Below are positions 10,163 through 64,000 of a stretch of DNA of 64,000 nucleotides, piece by piece. The position numbers and the translations under genes are program-made. Numbering within the stretch: the first letter of the stretch is position 1; each line of letters starts with the position of its first letter. The DNA is taken from the NCBI RefSeq assembly GCF_053078305.1, contig NZ_CP166879.1. One strand, 5' to 3'. Below the pieces are notes generated by a model. It did not search any database, was not told where the DNA came from, and worked only from the letters and a program-made list of their open reading frames with translations.

Positions 10163-11524
10163 TTACTTCTCCAGTTGGCGTAATATCTTATTAACTTTAT
10201 CAAAAGTTTCCTGATATTCCGCTTCTTCCTGGCTATCGGCGACAATTCCACCGCCCGCAGAGCAGTATATTTGTCCGTTAATGGCAGTCAGCGTGCGGAT
10301 AGTAATGCTGGTATCCATGTTGCCGCAAAAGCTCAAATAGCCAATGCTGCCGCACCAGGCATTACGTCGCTGCGGTTCCAGTTCGTCGATAATTTCCATA
10401 GCCCGTACTTTCGGAGCCCCGGTTATTGAACCACCAGGAAAAGCCGCGCGCAGCAGATCGCTGGCGTGTAACTGTTCTGGTAGTTGCGCCGTTATGGTGC
10501 TGACCAGATGATGCACGGCAGGGAAGGGTTCCACCACGAACAGCTCTGGTACTTTTACCGAACCTGCTACGGCAACACGACCGATATCATTACGCATTAA
10601 ATCGACAATCATCAGATTTTCGGCACGATCTTTCGCTGAGTTCGCCAGTTTTTCCGCTTGTTTGCTATCTTCCTGAGGATCGGGCAGGCGTGGTAGCGTG
10701 CCTTTAATCGGGCGGGTCTGGATTTCACAATTATCACAAAGAATAAACCGCTCTGGCGAAAGGCTTAAAATTGCACCCTGTTCAAGACGTAAAAAAGCGC
10801 TAAATGGCGCGCGGTTGGCCTGATAAAGCTGAAGGAATGCCTGCCATTCATCGCCAGAATAGGTCGCATGAAAACGCTGGGCGAGATTCACCTGATAGCA
10901 ATCACCGCTGTGCAGATATTCCTGTACCTGGCGAAATTTTTCGCCGTACTGCTCGCGGGTCATATTGGATTGCCAGTCGGAAGTGAGCGTGAAATCTTCC
11001 TGCGGCGAGAATTGCTGGCTTTCCAGCCAGGCCCGACGGGCATTGACATCATTATGACTCAGCAAAGAAACTGTATGACGCTGGTGGTCGACAATGAGCG
11101 CCCAATCGTAGATACCCACTGCCATATCCGGCAGAACGATATCTTGTTCCGCAATTTCTGGCAGTGACTCAAAACGGCGGCCCAGATCGTAGCCAAACAA
11201 CCCCAGTGCGCCGCCCTGAAATGGCAAATCTTCGTTATGCGTTGGGCGAATGTCTGCGCGATCCAGCACCTGCTGGAGCACCTGTAGCGGGTCATCAGTG
11301 GTCGTTGTGCGTTTTTCGCTTTCACTAACAACGGTTTCTTTACCTAAAGTGGTTAAAGTGCAAATCGGATCGGCGACCACAATATCAAAGCGGCTATACG
11401 GATGATCGGCATAGCCGGAGTGTAAAAGCATCGCCCACGGCAGGTGGCTTAAGCGGGAGAAATAAAATTCAGCGGCGTCCTGACGCCAGGGTAAAGTAAT
11501 CACAGCGGGAGATAACGTCTTCAT
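10163..11524 (-). CDS. pabB: Aminodeoxychorismate synthase component I (PabB)
   Basis: 453-aa ORF, anthranilate/ADC synthase family sequence. Confidence 0.95.
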   Translation of the reverse strand: MKTLSPAVITLPWRQDAAEFYFSRLSHLPWAMLLHSGYADHPYSRFDIVVADPICTLTTLGKETVVSESEKRTTTTDDPLQVLQQVLDRADIRPTHNEDLPFQGGALGLFGYDLGRRFESLPEIAEQDIVLPDMAVGIYDWALIVDHQRHTVSLLSHNDVNARRAWLESQQFSPQEDFTLTSDWQSNMTREQYGEKFRQVQEYLHSGDCYQVNLAQRFHATYSGDEWQAFLQLYQANRAPFSAFLRLEQGAILSLSPERFILCDNCEIQTRPIKGTLPRLPDPQEDSKQAEKLANSAKDRAENLMIVDLMRNDIGRVAVAGSVKVPELFVVEPFPAVHHLVSTITAQLPEQLHASDLLRAAFPGGSITGAPKVRAMEIIDELEPQRRNAWCGSIGYLSFCGNMDTSITIRTLTAINGQIYCSAGGGIVADSQEEAEYQETFDKVNKILRQLEK

Positions 11525-11597
11525 CAGTCCTGACTCTACTGGCTATGTGCCGGGTAGCATGAAATAATTAGCGCCAACAATTTAGCAGGAGTTAACA

Positions 11598-11777
11598 ATG
11601 TTTGCAGGTTTACCTTCACTCACCCATGAACAGCAGCAAAAAGCTGTCGAGCGGATCCAGGAACTGATGGCACAAGGGATGAGCAGCGGCCAGGCAATCG
11701 CGCTGGTGGCAGAAGAGCTGCGTGCCAACCACTCCGGCGAGCGAATCGTGGCGCGTTTTGAGGATGAAGACGAGTAA
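11598..11777 (+). CDS. yoaH: UPF0181 small protein YoaH (59 aa)
   Basis: ATG 11598, stop TAA 11775-11777; below the ORF-track length cutoff; protein [59 protein letters not shown]. Confidence 0.8.
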
Positions 11778-11831
11778 CACACTAATCCGTATCGATTTCG
11801 TTATAGAAGCCGATGATTATTTGATTGTGAG

Positions 11832-11869
11832 AAAAAGGACGCTTTTTATATGTGATTAAAAGCGTCCTG
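11832..11869 (-). terminator. Hairpin terminator between convergent yoaH and yoaC
   Basis: 10-bp inverted repeat AGGACGCTTT / AAAGCGTCCT; on minus strand followed by T-run. Confidence 0.55.
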
Positions 11870-11896
11870 ACCCATTTATGCTGATATAAATTTAAC

Positions 11897-12196
11897 TCAG
11901 ACCAGTGCTTTTAGTTCTTCCTGCATATATGTTGAAAAGTACTCAGGATTTTTAATCACAGAGCGTTCACCTGTCTCCATTTTTTTTGCCCATCCAACCA
12001 TTTTTTCTGTGAACCCAGGGTTCCAGCCTTCCTGGTCAGCTCGCGCCGTAATATCAGCGGCACTCGCGGGTACTCCCAGTTCTTTTAAATATTTAAAGAT
12101 TCCCTTCGCCGTGCTTTCATTCATCGAACTTGGTGTTGGCGCTGATACATCCATGGCACCAATGAAATCCAGGGCTTTATCTATTACAGCAGGCAT
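11897..12196 (-). CDS. yoaC: DUF1889 protein YoaC (99 aa)
   Basis: Start chosen at internal ATG (AAGGA Shine-Dalgarno 8 nt upstream) rather than track start 12256, which lacks an SD. Confidence 0.75.
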   Translation of the reverse strand: MPAVIDKALDFIGAMDVSAPTPSSMNESTAKGIFKYLKELGVPASAADITARADQEGWNPGFTEKMVGWAKKMETGERSVIKNPEYFSTYMQEELKALV

Positions 12197-12617
12197 ATTC
12201 TTATCCTTAAAATTAACCATGTTATCGATAAGGCTATATATGACCTTAATTTGCATCTAATATCAAAGGGATTATAACGATATGGCACGACTTAACCTGT
12301 TGACATTCAGGTGTTTTAAAGGTAGCAGCTCATGGTGTGTTATCCAGTAAGATGGAGAAAATTAACGGTCAGTCCGCACGCTATAACCAGATTGTTCAGC
12401 TAAGAAAAAAAACCAGAGTTGCTAATCAAAGGGCGAACACAACGGCATGGTTATGTTTATTTATATAGTTAGTTTTATAGATAAAATTGAAATTATAAAA
12501 ATAAATAATGAATTAGCAGAAGCATCAACAGTAATATCTTATTCTCTGGTCGATTTATGTAAAACCGACCAGTATTATCGATAAATTATCGTCTGACTTA
12601 TTTTGCTTCGATAAAGC

Positions 12618-47724: not shown

Positions 47725-48768
47725 ATGAAAAATTCAAAAGCAATATTGCAGGTGCCGGGCACAATGAAAATTATTTCAGCAGAAATACCAGTGCCTAAAG
47801 AAGATGAAGTTTTGATTAAAGTAGAATATGTCGGTATTTGTGGTTCAGATGTACATGGTTTTGAATCAGGTCCGTTTATTCCGCCTAAAGACCCAAATCA
47901 AGAAATTGGCCTGGGTCATGAATGCGCCGGGACGGTTGTGGCTGTGGGAAGCCGCGTGCGCAAATTTAAACCGGGGGATCGGGTAAATATCGAACCTGGC
48001 GTTCCTTGCGGTCACTGTCGTTACTGTCTGGAAGGCAAATATAACATCTGCCCGGACGTTGATTTTATGGCGACACAACCCAACTACCGCGGCGCATTAA
48101 CGCACTATCTGTGTCATCCGGAGAGCTTTACTTACAAACTGCCCGACAATATGGACACGATGGAAGGGGCGCTGGTGGAGCCTGCCGCAGTCGGGATGCA
48201 TGCCGCGATGCTGGCAGATGTTAAACCGGGTAAGAAGATAATTATTCTGGGAGCGGGTTGTATTGGTTTGATGACGTTGCAAGCGTGCAAATGCCTGGGA
48301 GCAACGGAAATTGCCGTCGTTGATGTGCTGGAAAAACGTCTGACAATGGCGGAACAGCTTGGTGCGACAGTGGTTATTAACGGCGCAAAAGAAGACACTA
48401 TTGCACGCTGTCAGCAATTTACCGAAGACATGGGCGCAGATATTGTTTTCGAAACAGCGGGTTCTGCGGTCACCGTTAAACAGGCACCTTATCTGGTAAT
48501 GCGCGGCGGTAAAATTATGATTGTTGGTACTGTACCCGGCGATTCGGCAATCAATTTCCTCAAAATCAATCGCGAAGTCACTATCCAGACGGTATTCCGC
48601 TATGCCAATCGTTATCCGGTCACGATTGAAGCTATTTCTTCAGGGCGATTCGATGTGAAATCGATGGTGACACATATTTACGATTACCGTGATGTACAAC
48701 AGGCATTTGAAGAGTCGGTTAACAACAAACGCGACATTATTAAAGGCGTTATTAAAATTAGCGATTAA
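47725..48768 (+). CDS. ydjJ: Zinc-dependent medium-chain dehydrogenase YdjJ
   Basis: 347-aa ORF, MDR family with structural-zinc Cys cluster CGHCRYC. Confidence 0.9.
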   Translation: MKNSKAILQVPGTMKIISAEIPVPKEDEVLIKVEYVGICGSDVHGFESGPFIPPKDPNQEIGLGHECAGTVVAVGSRVRKFKPGDRVNIEPGVPCGHCRYCLEGKYNICPDVDFMATQPNYRGALTHYLCHPESFTYKLPDNMDTMEGALVEPAAVGMHAAMLADVKPGKKIIILGAGCIGLMTLQACKCLGATEIAVVDVLEKRLTMAEQLGATVVINGAKEDTIARCQQFTEDMGADIVFETAGSAVTVKQAPYLVMRGGKIMIVGTVPGDSAINFLKINREVTIQTVFRYANRYPVTIEAISSGRFDVKSMVTHIYDYRDVQQAFEESVNNKRDIIKGVIKISD

Positions 48769-48788
48769 TTAATACGGGAGAACAGAAC

Positions 48789-49625
48789 ATGCTCGCAGAT
48801 ATCAGATATTGGGAAAACGATGCCACAAATAAACATTATGCAATTGCCCATTTTAACGTATGGAATGCAGAAATGTTGATGGGCGTTATCGACGCAGCCG
48901 AAGAAGCGAAATCCCCGGTTATTATTTCTTTTGGTACAGGTTTTGTCGGCAACACCTCATTTGAAGATTTCTCTCACATGATGGTATCAATGGCACGAAA
49001 AGCAACTGTGCCGGTAATAACTCATTGGGATCATGGTCGGAGTATGGAGATTATTCATAACGCCTGGACTCATGGTATGAATTCATTAATGCGTGATGCT
49101 TCCGCATTTGATTTCGAAGAAAATATTCGTTTAACCAAAGAGGCTGTTGATTTCTTCCATCCGCTGGGTATTCCGGTAGAGGCGGAATTAGGGCATGTCG
49201 GTAATGAAACCGTTTATGAGGAAGCTCTGGCGGGCTATCACTATACCGATCCTGACCAGGCGGCTGAATTTGTTGAACGTACGGGCTGTGACTCATTGGC
49301 TGTCGCCATCGGCAACCAGCATGGGGTTTATACGTCAGAGCCACAATTGAACTTTGAGGTCGTCAAACGCGTACGCGATGCCGTGTCTGTTCCGCTGGTT
49401 TTGCATGGCGCATCGGGGATCAGTGATGCCGACATTAAAACTGCAATTTCGTTAGGTATCGCGAAAATCAACATCCATACGGAGCTCTGTCAGGCCGCAA
49501 TGGTCGCAGTGAAAGAAAACCAGGATCAGCCTTTCCTGCATTTAGAACGTGAAGTACGTAAAGCTGTAAAAGAACGGGCATTGGAAAAAATTAAACTGTT
49601 CGGTTCTGATGGCAAAGCGGAATAA
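48789..49625 (+). CDS. ydjI: Class II ketose-bisphosphate aldolase family protein YdjI
   Basis: 278-aa ORF, aldolase family sequence. Confidence 0.9.
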   Translation: MLADIRYWENDATNKHYAIAHFNVWNAEMLMGVIDAAEEAKSPVIISFGTGFVGNTSFEDFSHMMVSMARKATVPVITHWDHGRSMEIIHNAWTHGMNSLMRDASAFDFEENIRLTKEAVDFFHPLGIPVEAELGHVGNETVYEEALAGYHYTDPDQAAEFVERTGCDSLAVAIGNQHGVYTSEPQLNFEVVKRVRDAVSVPLVLHGASGISDADIKTAISLGIAKINIHTELCQAAMVAVKENQDQPFLHLEREVRKAVKERALEKIKLFGSDGKAE

Positions 49626-49629
49626 TGAT

Positions 49630-50577
49630 ATGGATAATCTCGACGTTATTTGTATAGGTGCCGCTATTGTTGATATTCCATTGCAACCGGTCAGTAAAAA
49701 TATCTTTGATGTGGATTCTTATCCTCTTGAAAGAATCGCAATGACCACCGGGGGTGATGCAATAAATGAAGCAACAATTATTTCTCGTCTGGGCCATCGT
49801 ACAGCATTAATGAGTCGTGTTGGTAAAGATGCCGCAGGACAATTTATTCTCGACCATTGCCGCAAAGAGAATATTGATATTCAAAGCCTGAAACAGGACG
49901 TCAGCATAGATACCTCTATTAACGTTGGACTGGTGACGGAGGATGGCGAGCGGACGTTTGTCACAAACCGTAACGGCAGTCTGTGGAAATTGAATATTGA
50001 CGATGTTGATTTTTCGCGGTTTTCTCAGGCGAAATTATTATCACTGGCCAGTATTTTCAACAGTCCTCTATTGGATGGTAGAGCGCTAACAGAAATTTTT
50101 ACGCAAGCTAAAGCCCGGCAGATGATTATCTGTGCCGATATGATCAAACCGCGGTTGAATGAAACGCTGGATGATATTTGCGAAGCATTGAGTTATGTCG
50201 ATTATCTGTTTCCTAATTTTGCCGAGGCAAAATTACTCACCGGGAAAGAGAGACTGGATGAAATTGCTGACTGCTTTCTTGCGTGCGGCGTAAAAACGGT
50301 GGTGATTAAAACGGGTAAAGACGGCTGCTTTATCAAGCGTGGTGACATGACGATAAAGGTGCCAGCGGTCGCAGGAATAACCGCCATCGACACCATTGGC
50401 GCGGGCGATAACTTTGCTTCAGGTTTTATTGCGGCACTGTTAGAAGGCAAAAATCTGCGTGAATGCGCACGCTTTGCCAATGCAACGGCGGCTATCTCAG
50501 TTCTAAGCGTCGGTGCCACCACCGGTGTAAAAAACAGAAAGCTGGTCGAACAATTGCTGGAAGAATACGAAGGATAA
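49630..50577 (+). CDS. ydjH: PfkB-family sugar kinase YdjH
   Basis: 315 aa from ATG 49630; GAGDNF motif. Confidence 0.9.
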   Translation: MDNLDVICIGAAIVDIPLQPVSKNIFDVDSYPLERIAMTTGGDAINEATIISRLGHRTALMSRVGKDAAGQFILDHCRKENIDIQSLKQDVSIDTSINVGLVTEDGERTFVTNRNGSLWKLNIDDVDFSRFSQAKLLSLASIFNSPLLDGRALTEIFTQAKARQMIICADMIKPRLNETLDDICEALSYVDYLFPNFAEAKLLTGKERLDEIADCFLACGVKTVVIKTGKDGCFIKRGDMTIKVPAVAGITAIDTIGAGDNFASGFIAALLEGKNLRECARFANATAAISVLSVGATTGVKNRKLVEQLLEEYEG

Positions 50578-50586
50578 TGAAGGCAA

Positions 50587-51567
50587 ATGAAAAAGATACC
50601 TTTAGGCACAACGGATATAACGCTTTCGCGAATGGGTTTGGGGACATGGGCCATTGGCGGCGGTCCTGCATGGAATGGCGATCTCGATCGGCAAATATGT
50701 ATTGATACGATTCTTGAAGCCCATCGTTGCGGCATTAATCTGATTGATACTGCACCAGGATATAACTTTGGCAATAGTGAAGTTATCGTCGGTCAGGCGT
50801 TAAAAAAACTGCCCCGTGAACAGGTTGTAGTAGAAACCAAATGCGGCATTGTCTGGGAACGAAAAGGAAGTTTATTCAACAAAGTTGGCGATCGGCAGTT
50901 GTATAAAAACCTTTCCCCGGAATCTATCCGCGAAGAGGTAGAAGCCAGCTTGCAACGTCTGGGTATTGATTACATCGATATCTACATGACGCACTGGCAG
51001 TCGGTGCCGCCATTTTATACGCCGATCGCTGAAACTGTCGCAGTGCTTAATGAGTTAAAGGCTGAAGGGAAAATTCGCGCTATAGGCGCTGCTAACGTCG
51101 ATGCTGACCATATCCGCGAGTATCTGCAATATGGTGAACTGGATATTATTCAGGCGAAATACAGTATCCTCGACCGGGCAATGGAAAACGAACTGCTGCC
51201 GCTATGTCGTGATAATGGCATTGTGGTTCAGGTTTATTCCCCGCTAGAGCAGGGATTGTTGACCGGCACCATCACTCGTGATTACGTTCCGGGCGGCGCT
51301 CGGGCAAATAAAGTCTGGTTCCAGCGTGAAAACATGCTGAAAGTGATTGATATGCTTGAACAGTGGCAGCCACTTTGTGCTCGTTATCAGTGCACAATTC
51401 CCACTCTGGCACTGGCGTGGATATTAAAACAGAGTGATTTAATCTCCATTCTTAGTGGGGCTACTGCACCGGAACAGGTACGCGAAAATGTCGCGGCACT
51501 GAATATCAACTTATCGGATGCAGACGCAACATTGATGAGGGAAATGGCAGAGGCCCTGGAGCGTTAA
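50587..51567 (+). CDS. ydjG: Aldo-keto reductase YdjG
   Basis: 326-aa ORF, AKR family sequence. Confidence 0.9.
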   Translation: MKKIPLGTTDITLSRMGLGTWAIGGGPAWNGDLDRQICIDTILEAHRCGINLIDTAPGYNFGNSEVIVGQALKKLPREQVVVETKCGIVWERKGSLFNKVGDRQLYKNLSPESIREEVEASLQRLGIDYIDIYMTHWQSVPPFYTPIAETVAVLNELKAEGKIRAIGAANVDADHIREYLQYGELDIIQAKYSILDRAMENELLPLCRDNGIVVQVYSPLEQGLLTGTITRDYVPGGARANKVWFQRENMLKVIDMLEQWQPLCARYQCTIPTLALAWILKQSDLISILSGATAPEQVRENVAALNINLSDADATLMREMAEALER

Positions 51568-51703
51568 ATACTCAACACGATTCACCTCTGTTTCTGTGAA
51601 AACTGTGATGAAAATCTGTGATTCAAACAGGTTATTTTGAAAGTAAACATCGGTTATGCGATAATCGCGCTAATGTGATGTAAAAAGATACAGGGGTGTA
51701 ATC

Positions 51704-52462
51704 GTGGCGGCAAAAGACAGGATTCAGGCAATTAAGCAAATGGTTGCCAACGATAAAAAGGTGACAGTCTCAAATTTGAGTGGGATTTTTCAGGTAACCG
51801 AAGAAACCATTCGCCGCGATCTTGAGAAGCTGGAAGATGAAGGCTTTTTGACCAGAACCTATGGTGGTGCTGTTTTAAATACAGCGATGTTGACGGAGAA
51901 TATCCATTTTTATAAGCGCGCTTCATCGTTTTATGAAGAGAAGCAGCTTATTGCACGCAAGGCACTACCCTTTATCGACAATAAAACCACCATGGCAGCC
52001 GATTCCAGTAGTACCGTAATGGAATTGCTCAAATTGTTACAGGACCGTAGTGACCTGACGTTGCTAACCAACTCGGCGGAAGCGATTCATGTTCTGGCTC
52101 AGTCAGAAATTAAAGTCGTTTCAACGGGTGGGGAACTAAACAAAAATACACTTTCACTGCAAGGAAGAATTACTAAAGAGATCATCAGCCGCTATCATGT
52201 CGATATCATGGTAATGAGTTGTAAAGGTCTTGATATTAACAGCGGCGCGCTGGACTCTAATGAAGCGGAAGCTGAAATCAAAAAGACAATGATCCGTCAG
52301 GCGACAGAAGTTGCGTTATTGGTTGATCACTCTAAGTTTGATCGCAAAGCTTTTGTCCAGTTAGCTGACTTTAGTCATATTAATTACATAATAACTGATA
52401 AATCACCGGGTGCAGAGTGGATAGCATTTTGCAAAGACAATAATATCCAGCTGGTGTGGTAA
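51704..52462 (+). CDS. ydjF: DeoR-family transcriptional regulator YdjF
   Basis: 252-aa ORF with GTG start, N-terminal HTH. Confidence 0.9.
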   Translation: MAAKDRIQAIKQMVANDKKVTVSNLSGIFQVTEETIRRDLEKLEDEGFLTRTYGGAVLNTAMLTENIHFYKRASSFYEEKQLIARKALPFIDNKTTMAADSSSTVMELLKLLQDRSDLTLLTNSAEAIHVLAQSEIKVVSTGGELNKNTLSLQGRITKEIISRYHVDIMVMSCKGLDINSGALDSNEAEAEIKKTMIRQATEVALLVDHSKFDRKAFVQLADFSHINYIITDKSPGAEWIAFCKDNNIQLVW

Positions 52463-52579
52463 TTTAAGCACACGTTGTCAATATTATTTGTTCCTGCGCC
52501 TGGAAATAAAATGATGATAAAGATGCGGCAAGTGAATTTGCCGCAATTGCTACCTTTTTTAGCAAATCCGAGGCACCCA

Positions 52580-53938
52580 ATGGAACAATATGATCAAATT
52601 GGCGCAAGACTGGACCGCTTGCCTTTGGCCCGGTTTCATTATCGTATATTTGGTATTATAAGCTTTAGTCTGTTATTAACAGGGTTTTTGAGTTACTCCG
52701 GTAATGTCGTCTTAGCAAAGCTGGTAAGCAATGGATGGTCAAATAATTTCCTCAATGCCGCCTTTACCTCGGCATTAATGTTTGGTTATTTCATCGGCTC
52801 TCTTACCGGTGGGTTCATCGGTGATTACTTTGGGCGGCGCAGGGCGTTTCGCATAAATCTTCTCATCGTCGGTATTGCTGCAACAGGGGCCACTTTTGTC
52901 CCTGATATGTACTGGCTCATCTTCTTTCGCTTCCTGATGGGAACAGGAATGGGTGCGCTGATTATGGTTGGCTATGCCTCATTTACGGAGTTTATCCCCG
53001 CGACGGTGCGTGGAAAATGGTCCGCGCGGCTCTCATTTGTTGGTAACTGGTCGCCCATGCTGTCTGCGGCGATAGGTGTGGTGGTTATCGCTTTTTTTAG
53101 TTGGCGGATAATGTTTCTGCTGGGTGGTATTGGCATACTGTTAGCCTGGTTTCTTTCAGGTAAATACTTTATTGAGTCGCCACGATGGCTGGCAGGGAAA
53201 GGGCAAATCGCAGGTGCAGAAAGCCAACTTCGTGAAGTAGAGCAGCAAATTGAAAGAGAGAAGAGTATTCGTTTACCCCCGCTTACTTCGTATCAGAGCA
53301 ACAGCAAGGTTAAAGTAATCAAGGGTACTTTCTGGCTCCTGTTTAAAGGTGAAATGTTACGACGTACATTAGTCGCGATTACTGTTTTAATTGCAATGAA
53401 CATTTCGCTTTATACCATCACCGTATGGATACCGACCATATTTGTTAACTCCGGCATTGATGTCGATAAATCAATATTAATGACCGCTGTTATTATGATT
53501 GGCGCTCCGGTAGGAATATTTATTGCGGCATTAATTATTGATCATTTTCCTCGTCGGTTATTTGGCTCCACCTTACTTATTATTATTGCCGTGTTAGGCT
53601 ATATCTATTCAATTCAGACTACAGAGTGGGCGATTTTAATCTATGGCCTGGTGATGATCTTCTTTTTATACATGTATGTTTGCTTCGCGTCGGCGGTTTA
53701 TATCCCGGAGCTTTGGCCAACGCATTTACGCCTGCGCGGTTCGGGTTTCGTTAATGCCGTCGGACGGATCGTCGCAGTCTTCACGCCCTATGGCGTTGCG
53801 GCATTATTAACACATTATGGGTCGATCACGGTGTTTATGGTACTTGGTGTCATGTTATTGCTCTGTGCGCTGGTTCTCTCCATTTTTGGCATCGAAACGC
53901 GGAAGGTGTCGTTGGAAGAGATTTCTGAGGTGAATTAA
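52580..53938 (+). CDS. ydjE: MFS transporter YdjE
   Basis: 452 aa from ATG 52580; track ORF has 35 extra codons. Confidence 0.85.
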   Translation: MEQYDQIGARLDRLPLARFHYRIFGIISFSLLLTGFLSYSGNVVLAKLVSNGWSNNFLNAAFTSALMFGYFIGSLTGGFIGDYFGRRRAFRINLLIVGIAATGATFVPDMYWLIFFRFLMGTGMGALIMVGYASFTEFIPATVRGKWSARLSFVGNWSPMLSAAIGVVVIAFFSWRIMFLLGGIGILLAWFLSGKYFIESPRWLAGKGQIAGAESQLREVEQQIEREKSIRLPPLTSYQSNSKVKVIKGTFWLLFKGEMLRRTLVAITVLIAMNISLYTITVWIPTIFVNSGIDVDKSILMTAVIMIGAPVGIFIAALIIDHFPRRLFGSTLLIIIAVLGYIYSIQTTEWAILIYGLVMIFFLYMYVCFASAVYIPELWPTHLRLRGSGFVNAVGRIVAVFTPYGVAALLTHYGSITVFMVLGVMLLLCALVLSIFGIETRKVSLEEISEVN

Positions 53939-59441: not shown

Positions 59442-61403
59442 ATGCGGTTGTTTATTGCCGAAAAACCGAGTCTGGCGCGCGCCATTGCGGATGTCCTGCC
59501 CAAACCGCACCGTAAAGGCGATGGCTTTATCGAGTGCGGTAATGGTCAGGTGGTGACCTGGTGTATCGGTCACCTGCTTGAGCAGGCGCAGCCAGACGCC
59601 TACGACAGCCGCTATGCGCGCTGGAATCTTGCGGATTTGCCGATTGTCCCGGAAAAGTGGCAATTACAGCCCCGACCCTCCGTGACCAAACAACTTAACG
59701 TCATCAAACGGTACCTGCATGAAGCCAGCGAAATCGTTCACGCCGGGGACCCGGATCGCGAAGGGCAACTGCTGGTGGATGAAGTGCTGGACTATCTACA
59801 ACTGGCACCGGAAAAGCGCCAGCAGGTGCAGCGTTGCTTGATAAACGACCTGAACCCGCAGGCGGTTGAGCGGGCGATCGACCGTCTTCGTTCCAACAGT
59901 GAGTTTGTACCGCTGTGCGTTTCTGCGCTGGCGCGAGCGCGTGCCGACTGGCTATACGGCATCAACATGACCCGTGCGTATACCATTCTCGGTCGCAATG
60001 CCGGTTATCAGGGCGTACTTTCCGTGGGACGCGTGCAGACACCCGTGCTCGGGCTGGTGGTGCGCCGCGATGAAGAGATTGAAAACTTCGTGGCGAAAGA
60101 CTTCTTTGAAGTCAAAGCGCATATCGTGACACCTGCCGATGAGCGGTTTACCGCTATCTGGCAACCGAGCGAAGCGTGTGAACCGTACCAGGATGAAGAA
60201 GGGCGCTTGTTACATCGTCCACTGGCGGAGCATGTGGTTAACCGCATTAGTGGTCAACCGGCTATAGTCACTAGCTATAACGATAAACGGGAATCAGAAT
60301 CCGCGCCGCTGCCTTTTTCGCTTTCGGCGTTGCAGATTGAAGCGGCAAAACGTTTTGCTCTGAGTGCGCAGAACGTGCTTGATATCTGCCAGAAGCTGTA
60401 CGAAACACACAAGCTAATCACTTATCCGCGTTCCGATTGTCGCTATTTGCCAGAAGAACATTTTGCCGGACGCCACGCGGTGATGAATGCCATCAGCGTT
60501 CATGCACCAGATCTGTTGCCGCAGCCAGTGGTAGATCCAGATATACGCAACCGCTGTTGGGATGACAAAAAGGTCGATGCGCACCACGCCATCATCCCGA
60601 CCGCACGGAGTTCTGCGATCAACCTGACGGAGAACGAAGCGAAGGTCTATAACCTTATTGCCCGTCAGTACTTGATGCAGTTCTGCCCGGATGCGGTGTT
60701 CCGCAAGTGTGTTATCGAACTGGACATTGCCAAAGGCAAATTTGTCGCTAAAGCGCGTTTTCTTGCTGAAGCAGGTTGGCGCGCGCTGTTAGGCAGCAAA
60801 GAGCGCGATGAAGAAAACGACGGCACGCCACTGCCTGTGGTGGCGAAAGGCGATGAGTTGCTGTGTGAAAAAGGTGAAGTGGTAGAGCGGCAAACCCAGC
60901 CGCCTCGCCATTTTACCGATGCAACACTGCTTTCGGCGATGACCGGGATCGCGCGCTTTGTGCAGGACAAAGATCTGAAAAAGATCCTTCGTGCGACCGA
61001 TGGTCTGGGGACAGAAGCAACGCGTGCCGGGATTATTGAACTGTTGTTCAAGCGTGGTTTCCTCACCAAAAAAGGGCGCTATATCCACTCCACCGACGCC
61101 GGAAAAGCGTTATTCCATTCGCTGCCAGAAATGGCTACGCGACCGGACATGACCGCGCACTGGGAATCGGTGCTGACGCAAATCAGCGAAAAGCAGTGTC
61201 GCTATCAGGACTTTATGCAGCCGCTGGTGGGGACGCTATATCAGCTTATTGATCAAGCCAAACGTACTCCGGTGCGGCAGTTTCGCGGCATTGTGGCTCC
61301 GGGCAGTGGTGGCAGTGCTGATAAGAAAAAGGCTGCACCGCGTAAACGTAGTGCGAAAAAAAGTCCGCCAGCAGATGAAGCCGGAAGCGGGGCGATAGCG
61401 TAA
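59442..61403 (+). CDS. topB: DNA topoisomerase III
   Basis: 653 aa from ATG 59442, 4 nt after selD stop; Toprim N-terminus and Lys-rich C-terminal tail. Confidence 0.95.
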
Positions 61404-61530
61404 GCGAGCGAATCTTTCGTGCTATTCGAGTCATATTCTGAAATATCCAGCGGATCAAGAAAATTCGTTGGATATTTTTTTTGCATGGATAAAATTATCG
61501 CCTCTAAAGTATGTAATAACAGGGAATGTG

Positions 61531-62571
61531 ATGAAAAAAGTTTTATTACAAAACCATCCTGGGAGCGAGAAGTATTCTTTTAATGGCTGGGAAATATTTA
61601 ATAGTAATTTTGAACGGATGATTAAAGAAAATAAGACCATGCTGCTTTGTAAGTGGGGGTTTTATTTAACATGTGTTGTCGCTGTAATGTTTGTATTCGC
61701 AGCGATAACATCCAACGGTTTGAATGAAAGAGGCCTGATTACCGCGGGATGCTCTTTTCTTTATCTATTAATTATGATGGGGCTTATTGTTCGGGCCGGT
61801 TTTAAAGCAAAAAAAGAACAGCTGCATTATTATCAGGCTAAAGGTATTGAGCCGCTCAGTATCGAGAAATTACAGGCGCTACAATTGATCGCACCTTATC
61901 GATTCTATCATAAGCAATGGTCTGAAACGCTGGAGTTCTGGCCGCGAAAGCCTGAACCTGGCAAAGATACCTTCCAATATCATGTGCTTCCTTTTGACTC
62001 GATCGATATCATAAGTAAAAGACGCGAGTCTTTAGAGGATCAATGGGGTATCGAAGATAGCGAAAGTTATTGTGCCTTAATGGAGCATTTTCTTTCTGGC
62101 GACCATGGAGCCAATACCTTTAAAGCAAACATGGAGGAAGCCCCAGAGCAGGTTATCGCCTTGTTGAATAAATTTGCTGTTTTTCCCTCAGACTATATCT
62201 CTGATTGCGCTAATAATCGCTCCGGTAAATCCTCGGCGAAGCTAATATGGGCGGCGGAATTATCATGGATGATCTCGATATCAAGCACAGCTTTTCAAAA
62301 CGGGACAATTGAAGAAGAACTGGCCTGGCATTATATAATGCTTGCTTCTCGAAAGGCGCACGAGTTGTTCGAAAGCGAAGAAGATGATCAAAAAAATAGT
62401 CTAATGGGATTTCTTTACTGGCATATCTGCTGCTATCGCAGAAAGTTAACGGATGCTGAACTTGAAGCGTGTTATCATTACGATAAGCAGTTTTGGGAGC
62501 ACTACAGTAAGAAATGCCGTTGGCCCATAAGAAATGTTCCCTGGGGAGCATCATCTGTTAAATACTCATAA
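61531..62571 (+). CDS. ynjI: DUF1266 protein YnjI
   Basis: 346 aa from ATG 61531; AT-rich coding sequence. Confidence 0.85.
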   Translation: MKKVLLQNHPGSEKYSFNGWEIFNSNFERMIKENKTMLLCKWGFYLTCVVAVMFVFAAITSNGLNERGLITAGCSFLYLLIMMGLIVRAGFKAKKEQLHYYQAKGIEPLSIEKLQALQLIAPYRFYHKQWSETLEFWPRKPEPGKDTFQYHVLPFDSIDIISKRRESLEDQWGIEDSESYCALMEHFLSGDHGANTFKANMEEAPEQVIALLNKFAVFPSDYISDCANNRSGKSSAKLIWAAELSWMISISSTAFQNGTIEEELAWHYIMLASRKAHELFESEEDDQKNSLMGFLYWHICCYRRKLTDAELEACYHYDKQFWEHYSKKCRWPIRNVPWGASSVKYS

Positions 62572-62585
62572 ACGCCTGAAATTTT

Positions 62586-62678
62586 GCCGGGGGCGCTGCG
62601 CTTGCCCGGCCTACATTAGAGCGTAACTGCAATGAATTGTGCCCATTTGTAGGCCTGATAAGCGTAGCGCCATCAGGC
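62586..62678. repeat. Pair of REP (palindromic unit) elements between ynjI and gdhA
   Basis: GCCGGGGGCGCTGCGCTTGCCCGGCCTACA and TGTAGGCCTGATAAGCGTAGCGCCATCAGGC in opposite orientation. Confidence 0.7.
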
Positions 62679-62687
62679 ATTTACAAC

Positions 62688-64000
<1,313 letters not shown>

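What the first reader, a model, noticed from the sequence alone, without database searches (positions are those of the whole stretch)
61531..62678. AT-rich DUF1266 gene ynjI followed by a convergent REP pair
ynjI is markedly AT-rich relative to neighbouring topB and gdhA and encodes a DUF1266 protein with a single N-terminal TM region, suggesting an acquired gene. Two REP palindromic units in opposite orientation fill the spacer to gdhA.
Basis: seen in the sequence. Interest (0 to 1): 0.25.

Follow-up and report, generated by a model that had tools for sequence, protein, structure and literature searches.

The report
Acquired membrane gene ynjI with REP pair
This is the known E. coli accessory gene ynjI, an AT-rich, normally silenced gene for a small inner-membrane protein of unknown function, followed by an ordinary pair of REP repeats; it occupies a chromosomal junction that differs from strain to strain, so the finding is correct but ordinary.

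Summary
ynjI (61531-62571, +) has 40.9% GC and the lowest GC3 of the 49 large ORFs in the window. topB has 55% GC and gdhA 53%. The protein matches DUF1266 and NCBIfam PRK11380. Its "single TM region" is really a two-helix hairpin. The 116-nt spacer to gdhA holds one iREP-linker-REP pair (a single BIME).

The "acquired gene" reading is supported. ynjI is present in 3505 of 5426 complete E. coli genomes. 1514 have an empty topB|gdhA junction, and up to 369 carry an HscC-like Hsp70 plus J-domain/Sel1 cassette there. A few carry a ynjI allele only 68% identical in protein. Outside E. coli, close relatives appeared only in one other Escherichia species and in Pseudocitrobacter, at the same site.

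The gene is under purifying selection (dN/dS about 0.09-0.24). Published work shows its promoter is activated by BglJ-RcsB and moderately repressed by H-NS/StpA.

Its function is unknown. The cytoplasmic all-alpha domain has no solved structural relative and no catalytic-looking invariant residues. Gene contexts of distant relatives (SUKH, SUFU, Hcp, Abi/NERD neighbours) favour a non-enzymatic protective or immunity-like binding role. E. coli paralogs YbeR and YbeU are coupled to the co-chaperone genes djlB and djlC, which is the main rival lead. Interest is low.

The parts
61255..61403 (+). 3' end of topB encoding the basic C-terminal tail. This is the left edge of the strain-variable block.
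   Evidence: Identity to the ynjI-less haplotypes falls from 97-100% to 80%, then 62%, within the last ~150 nt of topB. TopB tails differ by haplotype.
61434..61441 (+). TATTCTGA, a match to the core (wwTTCykA) of the BglJ-RcsB activator box.
   Evidence: This is the only match in the topB-ynjI spacer. It lies about 65 nt upstream of the inferred transcription start. The paper places the mutationally mapped ynjI box 65-68 nt upstream (PMC3950696). The position here is inferred, not read from the paper's figure.
61440..61485 (+). topB intrinsic terminator: a 16-pair hairpin followed by a T-run.
   Evidence: Terminator scan and inverted repeat I4. It is conserved in the divergent-allele and Pseudocitrobacter-like loci.
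61468..61495 (+). Inferred ynjI promoter: -35 TTGGAT (61468-61473), 16-nt spacer, -10 TAAAAT (61490-61495).
   Evidence: Read directly from the sequence. The weak -35 suits an activator-dependent promoter. The consensus scan did not call it, so it is inferred only.
61531..62571 (+). ynjI coding sequence: 346 aa, 6 substitutions relative to K-12 YnjI.
   Evidence: The ATG start is supported by the family alignment, where relatives begin M-x-x-(L)LQNHPG.
61543..61563 (+). N-terminal cytoplasmic motif LLQNHPG (aa 5-11). Q7 and N8 are nearly invariant in a family that is only ~25% identical overall.
   Evidence: Alignment A3 of 52 relatives.
61639..61800 (+). Transmembrane hairpin: TM1 aa 37-61, short loop, TM2 aa 68-90. 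The likely topology is N-in/C-in.
   Evidence: Kyte-Doolittle segments and AlphaFold helices 36-60 and 66-104. Lys/Arg residues flank both cytoplasmic ends (sequence). The topology is inferred.
62029..62544 (+). DUF1266 domain (aa 167-338), the core of a ~250-residue all-alpha cytoplasmic domain.
   Evidence: Pfam match. hhalign to K-12 YbeU gives probability 94.8%, E 5e-8. The model has mean pLDDT 92.
62586..62614 (-). REP unit in inverted orientation (iREP). On the + strand it ends in CTAC (62611-62614).
   Evidence: self-fold -15.7 kcal/mol. REP definition from PMC3333891.
62615..62648 (.). 34-nt BIME linker. It contains CAATGAATTG (62630-62639), which matches the CAANNNNTTR core of the IHF consensus.
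   Evidence: Sequence. The linker is conserved in K-12 and in the divergent-allele locus. The IHF reading rests on my memory of the consensus and was not tested.
62649..62678 (+). REP unit: GTAG (62649-62652) followed by the imperfect palindrome GCCTGAT...ATCAGGC.
   Evidence: self-fold -11.8 kcal/mol. Repeat family, median 16 matches per genome.
62688..62740 (-). gdhA stop codon and last ~17 codons. This is the right edge of the variable block.
   Evidence: Alignments break exactly at the gdhA stop. Only the first 50 nt of gdhA show reduced identity to the empty haplotype (86%), then 96-100%.

Best explanation
The interval is the E. coli accessory gene ynjI together with its own flanks.

Shown:
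- A 346-codon ORF under purifying selection encodes an inner-membrane protein. It has a short N-terminal segment carrying a conserved LLQNHPG motif, a two-helix membrane hairpin and a ~250-residue all-alpha domain containing DUF1266.
- The block from the last ~40 codons of topB to the gdhA stop codon is one of at least four haplotypes at this junction in E. coli: common ynjI, a 68%-identical ynjI allele, an empty junction, and an HscC-like Hsp70 plus J-domain/Sel1 cassette.
- Both edges lie in or at conserved core genes, and no mobility gene is present.
- The spacer to gdhA is a single BIME (iREP, 34-nt linker, REP).

From the literature:
- The promoter is activated by BglJ-RcsB and moderately repressed by H-NS/StpA, so the gene is largely silent in laboratory culture.

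Inferred:
- The block was acquired and is exchanged between lineages by homologous recombination through topB and gdhA. Its low GC is why H-NS dampens it.
- The BIME hairpins cap the 3' ends of the convergent ynjI and gdhA transcripts.
- The hairpin holds both termini and the DUF1266 domain on the cytoplasmic face. There the domain acts as a non-catalytic protein-binding module.
- Its most likely role is protective or immunity-like: it would bind and neutralise, or sense, an incoming toxin or invader component at the inner membrane.

I hold the anatomy and evolution with roughly 0.85 confidence and the protective-binder function with roughly 0.3. The number given below is a blend of the two.
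For: Identity and anatomy:
-.

Composition:
-.

Distribution in E. coli:
- ynjI is in 3505 of 5426 genomes. The junction is empty in 1514 (loci L002 and L003). The Hsp70/J-Sel1 cassette is in up to 369.
- A divergent allele sits at the same site. Its divergence is confined to roughly 61650-62590, while the promoter, the first 40 codons and the BIME stay 96-100% identical.

Block edges:
-.

Selection:
- dN/dS is 0.24 (window vs K-12) and 0.09 (window vs the L011 allele). Synonymous sites are saturated against the 68% allele.

Distribution outside E. coli:
- Only Escherichia sp. and Pseudocitrobacter were found, at the same site and with GC 0.42 against flanks of 0.51-0.58.
- The wider family is small. 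There were 82 hits among 1.84 billion representatives, of which about 50 are full-length with the same architecture.

Regulation:
- PMC3950696, with a core box at the expected distance from the inferred start.

BIME:
-. Definitions come from PMC3333891.

Non-catalytic binder:
- The invariant residues are Q97, W130, G293 and W338. The near-invariant ones are mostly Trp, Leu, Tyr, Ala and Phe.

Protective role, from the gene contexts of 10 distant relatives:
- A SUKH-1 gene lies immediately downstream (L021).
- One relative sits in a same-strand array after an Hcp-like gene and a SUFU gene scoring 150 bits (L023).
- A PAAR gene lies 3 kb away (L028).
- One region carries AbiEi, NERD and an SLFN-type helicase (L030).
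- A YobI-type ATPase and a Sel1 protein are neighbours in L016.
- The authors of PMC3950696 list the rhsA and rhsB competition loci as putative members of the same BglJ-RcsB regulon.
Against: - No toxin or effector gene lies next to ynjI in E. coli.
- PADLOC models give no hit.
- Only 2 of the 10 contexts contain recognised immunity families, and several relatives are solitary between housekeeping genes.
- Low dN/dS is not what fast-evolving immunity genes usually show.
- The E. coli paralogs point instead to an Hsp70/J-protein connection.
- Presence at the same site in another genus, with unchanged low GC, is also compatible with ancient residence plus repeated loss.
- IHF binding and 3'-end capping by the BIME were not tested.
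Confidence: 0.6

Rival explanations
1. YnjI is a membrane-anchored member of the specialised HscC-type Hsp70 system. Its DUF1266 domain would be an adaptor, client-selector or regulator for tail-anchored J-proteins such as DjlB and DjlC, rather than an immunity-like factor.
For: - In K-12 both soluble DUF1266 paralogs are translationally coupled to J-protein genes. ybeR/djlB and ybeU/djlC each overlap by 4 nt. They sit beside Sel1 genes and hscC.
- The YnjI C-terminal domain is homologous to YbeU.
- DjlB and DjlC carry C-terminal membrane anchors (PMC8215388), so they share YnjI's location.
- The alternative occupant of the ynjI site is an Hsp70 43% identical to HscC. It comes with a protein whose J domain is 40% identical to DjlB and whose Sel1 repeats resemble YbeQ and YbeT. 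Its GC (0.42) matches that of ynjI.
Against: - None of the 10 examined neighbourhoods of YnjI-type relatives contains an Hsp70 or DnaJ gene.
- ynjI itself is solitary.
- The Hsp70 cassette lacks any DUF1266 gene, and its first gene product (266 aa, with a signal-peptide-like N-terminus) shows no convincing similarity to YnjI.
Confidence: 0.2
2. ynjI is an old resident of the topB-gdhA junction in the Escherichia/Pseudocitrobacter ancestry and has been lost repeatedly. On this view its AT-richness is maintained by function or regulation and is not a trace of recent import.
For: - The gene, site, BIME and low GC (0.42) are the same in Pseudocitrobacter vendiensis.
- YnjI divergence there (81% aa) falls in the range of the neighbouring core proteins: YdjA 82%, SelD 88%, TopB 93%, GdhA 95%.
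- The gene is under purifying selection.
- There are no mobility genes or insertion scars at the edges.
Against: - The scan of one genome for each of 100,044 species returned relatives only from one other Escherichia species and Pseudocitrobacter. No Salmonella, Citrobacter or named Escherichia species appeared, nor did the E. coli representative itself.
- Three or four deeply divergent haplotypes coexist within a single species, with sharp edges.
- GC3 is the lowest in the window.
- Distant relatives sit at unrelated sites in other bacteria, for example between yniA and yniB.
Confidence: 0.15
3. The REP pair is simply a pair of transcription terminators, and ynjI is a decaying or non-functional ORF whose low GC reflects relaxed selection.
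For: - The pair lies between convergent genes. The whole spacer folds strongly on both strands: -49.9 and -55.4 kcal/mol, z-scores -3.9 and -5.0.
- ynjI is poorly expressed under laboratory conditions unless BglJ is present (PMC3950696).
Against: - Neither hairpin is followed by a T-run, and the terminator scan finds nothing in 62572-62687.
- The units carry the GTAG/CTAC signature and belong to a genome-wide repeat family.
- The ORF is intact in thousands of genomes. dN/dS is 0.09-0.24 and motifs are conserved across phyla.
Confidence: 0.03

Closest known systems
E. coli K-12 YnjI (b1762), NCBIfam PRK11380
   Same: Same gene. The protein is 346 aa with 6 substitutions. It sits in the same position between topB and gdhA and is followed by the same REP pair.
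   Different: Nothing of substance; this is an allelic variant. Its best match in complete genomes is 99.7% identical over the region.
YbeR and YbeU, the soluble DUF1266 paralogs in the ybeQ-hscC island of E. coli
   Same: They share the DUF1266 domain. hhalign gives probability 94.8% between the YnjI family and YbeU. All three exceed the Pfam threshold.
   Different: - YbeR and YbeU are 235 aa with no membrane anchor and no LLQNHPG N-terminus.
- They are translationally coupled to djlB and djlC, next to hscC and Sel1 genes.
- YnjI has a 2-TM hairpin and an extra conserved segment (aa 96-165), and it is solitary.
- phmmer with YnjI does not reach them at E<=1e-3.
BIME-1 type REP pairs (one REP and one iREP, long conserved linker, often an IHF site), as described in PMC3333891
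   Same: - Single copy.
- Two imperfect palindromes in inverse orientation with GTAG/CTAC at the stem feet.
- A 34-nt linker containing a CAANNNNTTG core.
- Extragenic position between convergent genes.
   Different: I could not assign the y/z1/z2 types, because the consensus figure is not in the held text. The IHF match covers only the core of the consensus. The RefSeq feature table returned for K-12 lists no repeat feature here.
H-NS-repressed, BglJ-RcsB-activated loci (bgl, leuO, chiA, yidL, yecT and others)
   Same: ynjI is one of the ten promoters shown to be activated 4- to 73-fold by BglJ-RcsB, with a mutationally mapped box. It is moderately de-repressed in an hns stpA mutant (PMC3950696). 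Like them it is AT-rich.
   Different: For ynjI, activation is described as canonical, with the box 65-68 nt upstream, rather than mainly anti-silencing. H-NS repression is only moderate.
SUKH and SuFu families of immunity proteins in polymorphic-toxin systems (their immunity role is from my knowledge of the Zhang/Aravind work)
   Same: Distant YnjI-type genes lie directly beside a SUKH-1 gene and within an Hcp-SUFU same-strand array. The distribution is patchy, the genes are solitary 'orphans', and no catalytic residues are evident.
   Different: There is no sequence or fold relationship to those families. YnjI is larger and membrane-anchored. No cognate toxin is known. DUF1266 was not found in the held text or supplement of the polymorphic-toxin survey.

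Membership tests
Pfam DUF1266 (PF06889) | Score to the family HMM above the gathering threshold (27 bits). | tested here: met
   85.4 bits, E 7e-24, covering profile positions 1-175 of 175.
NCBIfam PRK11380 (YnjI equivalog) | Whole-protein score above the curated cut-off (386 bits). | tested here: met
   663 bits, covering 1-346 of the protein.
YnjI-type subfamily (2-TM hairpin plus DUF1266) | N-terminal LQNHPG motif, two hydrophobic helices, the juxtamembrane EQxxYY and WSETLE motifs, and a C-terminal DUF1266 domain, aligned end to end. | tested here: met
   About 50 full-length relatives at 22-34% identity align over residues ~5-340. Q7, N8, Q97, Y100, W130 and E135 are conserved.
REP / BIME | A 30-40 nt imperfect palindrome with the conserved tetranucleotide GTAG 5' of the stem foot (PMC3333891). 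| tested here: met
   The REP at 62649-62678 starts with GTAG. The iREP at 62586-62614 ends with CTAC. Both fold alone, at -11.8 and -15.7 kcal/mol.
REP / BIME | Two units in inverse orientation separated by a linker. | tested here: met
   The arms are 83% complementary across a 32-34 nt linker.
REP / BIME | High copy number in the genome. | tested here: met
   The 116-nt spacer matches a median of 16 places per E. coli genome at E<=1e-3 (maximum 36). The search keeps at most 40 pieces per record, so these are lower bounds.
BIME-1 specifically | Single copy, y plus z1 units, and a conserved long L linker that frequently carries an IHF site. | tested here: inconclusive
   The single copy and the 34-nt linker fit. 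CAATGAATTG matches only the CAANNNNTTR core. The unit types could not be assigned, and the L-linker consensus was not available.
Classical genomic island or mobile element | Integrase or transposase, tRNA or att-site target, flanking direct repeats. | tested here: not met
   The edges lie inside the topB 3' end and at the gdhA stop. The 127-nt and 116-nt spacers hold only a terminator/promoter and the BIME. An IS1 is seen only in one variant of the Hsp70 haplotype.
Horizontally acquired, xenogeneically silenced gene | Atypical composition, patchy distribution and H-NS-dependent repression. | tested here: met
   Composition and distribution. Repression is taken from the literature only (PMC3950696) and described there as moderate.
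Polymorphic-toxin immunity protein | Encoded immediately downstream of a cognate toxin, or within poly-immunity arrays. | tested here: inconclusive
   Not met for ynjI in E. coli, where it is solitary. It is partly met for distant relatives: SUKH next door in L021, and an Hcp/SUFU array in L023.
Polymorphic-toxin immunity protein | Direct binding and neutralisation of a toxin. | not testable with these tools
   Needs competition and binding experiments.
HscC-type Hsp70 / J-protein module | Genomic coupling to a J-domain protein or Hsp70 gene. | tested here: not met
   ynjI and all 10 examined YnjI-type relatives lack such neighbours. The feature is met only by the paralogs ybeR and ybeU.
Known anti-phage defence systems (PADLOC-DB 2.0) | Match to a defence-protein model. 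| tested here: not met
   No family at E<=0.01 for YnjI.

The most novel reading that the evidence does not exclude
DUF1266 proteins, HscC-type Hsp70s, DjlB/C-type J-proteins and Sel1-repeat proteins may form one mobile, membrane-associated, chaperone-based conflict (defence or immunity) toolkit.

On this reading the topB|gdhA junction is a hotspot where alternative versions of the toolkit replace one another. One version is membrane-anchored DUF1266 alone (ynjI, in at least two deeply divergent alleles). Another is an Hsp70 plus J-Sel1 cassette. The third state is an empty junction. YnjI would be a stand-alone sensor or immunity arm of such a system.
Probability: 0.12. Interest if true: 0.6.

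Novelty: already known. Interest (0 to 1): 0.2.

Why it matters
As a scan hit it matters little. ynjI is an annotated K-12 gene and the REP pair is a standard BIME.

Three points have some value:
- They give a concrete handle on a domain of unknown function. DUF1266 is an all-alpha, apparently non-catalytic cytoplasmic domain with no solved structural relative. In E. coli it occurs either coupled to J-protein co-chaperone genes or, in YnjI, tethered to the inner membrane.
- The topB|gdhA junction turns out to be a clean multi-allelic locus, with natural ynjI+, ynjI-variant, empty and Hsp70-cassette strains. That makes loss- and gain-of-function comparisons easy.
- The gene belongs to the cryptic BglJ-RcsB regulon, whose physiological trigger is unknown.

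A demonstrated role in toxin immunity, phage defence or HscC function would give a function to a conserved unknown in the best-studied bacterium.

Tried and rejected
- Homology between YnjI and the first gene of the alternative cassette (266 aa): only a 49-residue, 33% local match, so I rejected it. There was no similarity to the J-Sel1 protein either.
- PADLOC models: no hit for YnjI, and only marginal hits for the cassette proteins.
- Sequence search of the family profile against all PDB chains: only spurious coiled-coil and designed-protein hits.
- The AlphaFold-database libraries were not available.
- Rfam at permissive threshold over 61200-62900: no match.
- The genome-collection scan with the 52-sequence alignment failed because no conserved stretch was long enough. 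I repeated it with five close relatives, so it only reports close homologs.
- Word-indexed protein searches with YbeU and with the family alignment gave no informative domain fusions.
- Literature: 'DUF1266' occurs in a single held paper, as an H-NS-repressed locus in strain 042 that is not ynjI. The polymorphic-toxin survey and the E. coli defence-island survey mention neither ynjI nor this junction. The eLife conflict-systems paper describes different Hsp70 contexts. An ASKA overexpression screen listed ynjI only in its first, unspecific round.
- The consensus promoter scan did not call a ynjI promoter. The promoter I give is read by eye and anchored on the published distance of the activator box.
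Full report
**What is at the coordinates**

The window is E. coli chromosome carrying selD, topB, ynjI and gdhA, in the reverse orientation relative to K-12. The finding's start, 61531, is the ATG of ynjI. The ORF ends with TAA at 62569-62571. The finding's end, 62678, is the last base of the second REP unit.

The protein has 346 residues and differs from K-12 YnjI at six positions. It matches Pfam DUF1266 at 85.4 bits (threshold 27). It matches the NCBIfam equivalog PRK11380 at 663 bits (threshold 386).

**Composition**

| Gene or region | GC |
|---|---|
| ynjI | 0.409 |
| topB | 0.551 |
| selD | 0.550 |
| gdhA | 0.534 |
| topB-ynjI spacer | 0.36 |

- The GC3 of ynjI is 0.409. That is the lowest of 49 non-overlapping ORFs of at least 150 aa in the window, whose median is 0.519.
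- Only 2.6% of equally long sliding windows in the 64 kb are as AT-rich.
- Because synonymous positions are affected, amino-acid content does not explain the bias.

**Membrane region**

Two 19-residue-plus hydrophobic segments (aa 37-61 and 68-90) are separated by a short loop. Nothing after residue 100 is hydrophobic. An AlphaFold model built on 52 relatives has mean pLDDT 92 and pTM 0.89. It shows two long helices (36-60 and 66-104) followed by an all-helical domain.

Lys and Arg residues flank the outer ends of both helices, which suggests both termini are cytoplasmic. That topology is inferred. It agrees with my memory of the global topology survey cited for YnjI in PMC3950696.

**The REP pair**

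The 116-nt spacer between the ynjI and gdhA stop codons contains three parts:
- an inverted REP at 62586-62614, ending in CTAC;
- a 34-nt linker;
- a REP at 62649-62678, beginning with GTAG.

Each unit is an imperfect palindrome that folds alone, and the two are 83% complementary to each other. This fits the published definition of REP, iREP and BIME (PMC3333891).

The spacer matches a median of 16 places per E. coli genome, so it belongs to a dispersed repeat family. It is the only such pair in the 64-kb window.

The single copy and the long linker fit the BIME-1 class. The linker contains CAATGAATTG, which matches the core of the IHF consensus as I remember it. I could not assign the unit types or test IHF binding.

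Neither hairpin is followed by a T-run, so these are not canonical terminators. The spacer folds strongly on both strands. That is compatible with the known role of REPs in protecting the 3' ends of upstream messages, here for both convergent genes. This role is inferred.

Whether the pair is "convergent" depends on the orientation convention. The GTAG and CTAC ends face each other across the linker.

**Distribution: acquired or not**

| State of the topB\|gdhA junction | Genomes (of 5426 complete E. coli) |
|---|---|
| ynjI region present | 3505 |
| Empty: topB and gdhA 76 nt apart, with one degenerate REP-like palindrome between them | 1514 |
| ~4.7-kb cassette: secreted-looking 266-aa protein, Hsp70, J-domain/Sel1-repeat protein | up to 369 (includes Nissle 1917 and UPEC 536) |

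- A further ynjI allele is only 68% identical in protein and about 76% in DNA. It occupies the same site in about 28 genomes.
- The variable block has sharp edges. On the left, identity to ynjI-less haplotypes collapses within the last ~150 nt of topB, so the basic C-terminal tail of TopB differs by haplotype. On the right, the break is exactly at the gdhA stop, with only ~50 nt of reduced identity inside gdhA.
- The short spacers contain no mobility gene, tRNA or direct repeat.
- In the 68% allele the divergence is confined to about 61650-62590. The promoter, the first 40 codons and the BIME remain 96-100% identical. That indicates allele replacement by recombination within and around the gene.

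**Distribution outside E. coli**

A scan of one genome for each of 100,044 species returned three hits:
- Escherichia sp. MOD1-EC7003 (90% identity);
- Pseudocitrobacter vendiensis (81%);
- a 926-bp contig, probably contamination, in a Bacillus assembly.

The E. coli representative itself did not appear. In both real hits the gene lies between topB and gdhA. Its GC is 0.42 against flanks of 0.51-0.58.

It most likely moves by homologous recombination through the conserved flanks. An old acquisition with repeated loss cannot be excluded, because YnjI divergence between genera (81%) is within the range of neighbouring core proteins (82-95%).

**Is it a real, functional gene?**

Yes.
- dN/dS is 0.24 against K-12 and 0.09 against the Pseudocitrobacter-like allele.
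- Against the 68% allele, synonymous sites are saturated while dN is about 0.2.
- An exhaustive HMMER search of 1.84 billion representative proteins found 82 hits. About 50 are full-length relatives at 22-34% identity with the same architecture.
- Their alignment shows a nearly invariant N-terminal LQNHPG, two hydrophobic helices, the juxtamembrane EQxxYY and WSETLE motifs, and DUF1266 motifs including WGI, LIWGFDLWR, NYRLGxAxWS and CxWPI.
- The conserved N-terminus also confirms the ATG at 61531 as the start.

**Regulation (literature)**

PMC3950696 shows the following:
- The ynjI promoter is activated by the BglJ-RcsB heteromer.
- Mutation of a mapped box centred 65-68 nt upstream of the start abolishes activation.
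- ynjI mRNA rises moderately in an hns stpA mutant.

In the window, the only match to the core wwTTCykA in the topB-ynjI spacer is TATTCTGA at 61434-61441. It lies about 65 nt upstream of the start implied by a TTGGAT-16-TAAAAT promoter at 61468-61495.

The box and promoter are interleaved with the topB terminator hairpin at 61440-61485. These positions are my inference. They were not read from the paper's figure.

**What the protein might do**

The invariant positions are Gln, Trp, Gly and Trp. The near-invariant ones are mostly aromatic or aliphatic. That argues for a binding or scaffolding domain rather than an enzyme. There are two leads.

*Lead 1: conflict-related gene contexts.* Ten neighbourhoods of distant YnjI-type genes show these features:
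- one gene is followed directly by a SUKH-1 gene;
- one lies in a same-strand array after an Hcp-like gene and a strong SUFU gene;
- one is 3 kb from a PAAR gene;
- one is in a region with AbiEi, NERD and a Schlafen-type helicase;
- one is beside a YobI-type ATPase and a Sel1 protein;
- the rest are solitary insertions, for example between yniA and yniB in another enterobacterium;
- none has an Hsp70 or J-protein neighbour.

To my knowledge, SUKH and SuFu families are immunity proteins of polymorphic-toxin systems. The BglJ-RcsB paper also lists rhsA and rhsB as putative regulon members.

*Lead 2: the E. coli paralogs.* ybeR and ybeU are translationally coupled to djlB and djlC, next to hscC and two Sel1 genes. 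The YnjI domain is homologous to YbeU.

The cassette that replaces ynjI in other strains also points this way:
- its Hsp70 is 43% identical to HscC;
- its J domain is 40% identical to DjlB;
- its Sel1 repeats resemble those of YbeQ and YbeT;
- its GC is 0.42.

I rank a protective, immunity-like binder at the cytoplasmic face of the membrane first, at about 0.3. An Hsp70/J-protein partner comes second, at about 0.2. Neither is demonstrated.

**Verdict**

The feature itself is already known: an annotated gene and a standard REP pair. The added results are a multi-allelic junction, a deep allele, purifying selection, the family architecture and two functional leads. They are useful for anyone studying DUF1266 or the cryptic BglJ regulon, but they do not make the locus surprising. 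Interest is 0.2.

Noticed in passing
L005:5608-10199 (E. coli A26); also Nissle 1917 and UPEC 536: In up to 369 of 5426 genomes the ynjI site instead holds a three-gene cassette. It encodes a secreted-looking 266-aa protein with no family, an Hsp70 43% identical to HscC, and a 674-aa protein with a DjlB/C-like J domain and Sel1 repeats. It looks like a compact paralog of the K-12 ybeQ-hscC island without a DUF1266 gene. Many copies lack the first gene (78% coverage class).
   Followed up: partly
window 61255-61403; L002, L004, L005 topB 3' ends: The basic C-terminal tail of topoisomerase III (last ~40 residues) has a different sequence in each junction haplotype. The ynjI-linked tail is closest to that of the Pseudocitrobacter-like locus. 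Whether the tails differ functionally is unknown.
   Followed up: partly
L006:6001-7032 (and L007-L010): A second ynjI allele, 68% identical in protein with saturated synonymous divergence, sits at the same site in about 28 complete E. coli genomes. Its promoter, first 40 codons and REP pair are nearly identical to the common allele. This is a mosaic made by recombination inside the gene.
   Followed up: yes
L005:8175-10199, protein residues ~502-535: The J-Sel1 protein contains a run of GAD tripeptide repeats, which Pfam picks up as collagen-like. Matches in other genomes split into two pieces there, suggesting length variation.
   Followed up: no
L020 (NZ_ABFU01000109.1, 926 bp, 'Bacillus coahuilensis m4-4'): A 926-bp contig in a Bacillus assembly encodes residues 68-346 of YnjI at 98% identity. 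This is almost certainly E. coli contamination of that assembly.
   Followed up: no
window 62572-62687: A published genomic SELEX screen lists a strong RpoS-holoenzyme binding peak (intensity 79.5) in the gdhA/ynjI convergent spacer, which is on or near the REP pair and where no promoter is expected (PMC5493296).
   Followed up: no
window 34695-36038; 11361-12201; 47725-53938: The window has other AT-rich stretches. One is the diguanylate-cyclase gene cdgI, with GC 0.39, the lowest of any large ORF. Another is the yoaH/yoaC area. A third is the run of genes at 47.7-53.9 kb that starts with ydjJ, ydjI and ydjH, with GC 0.42-0.48.
   Followed up: no
L017:4712-9664 (K-12 ybeR-djlB and ybeU-djlC): In both DUF1266/J-protein gene pairs in K-12, the stop of the DUF1266 gene overlaps the start of the J-protein gene by 4 nt. 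That implies translational coupling and probably a fixed stoichiometry.
   Followed up: partly
L013:6001-7107: A 28%-identical YnjI-type gene is inserted between yniA and yniB in another enterobacterial genome (assembly GCA_004309785.1). It is a second example of this gene type as a solitary insertion between conserved housekeeping genes.
   Followed up: no
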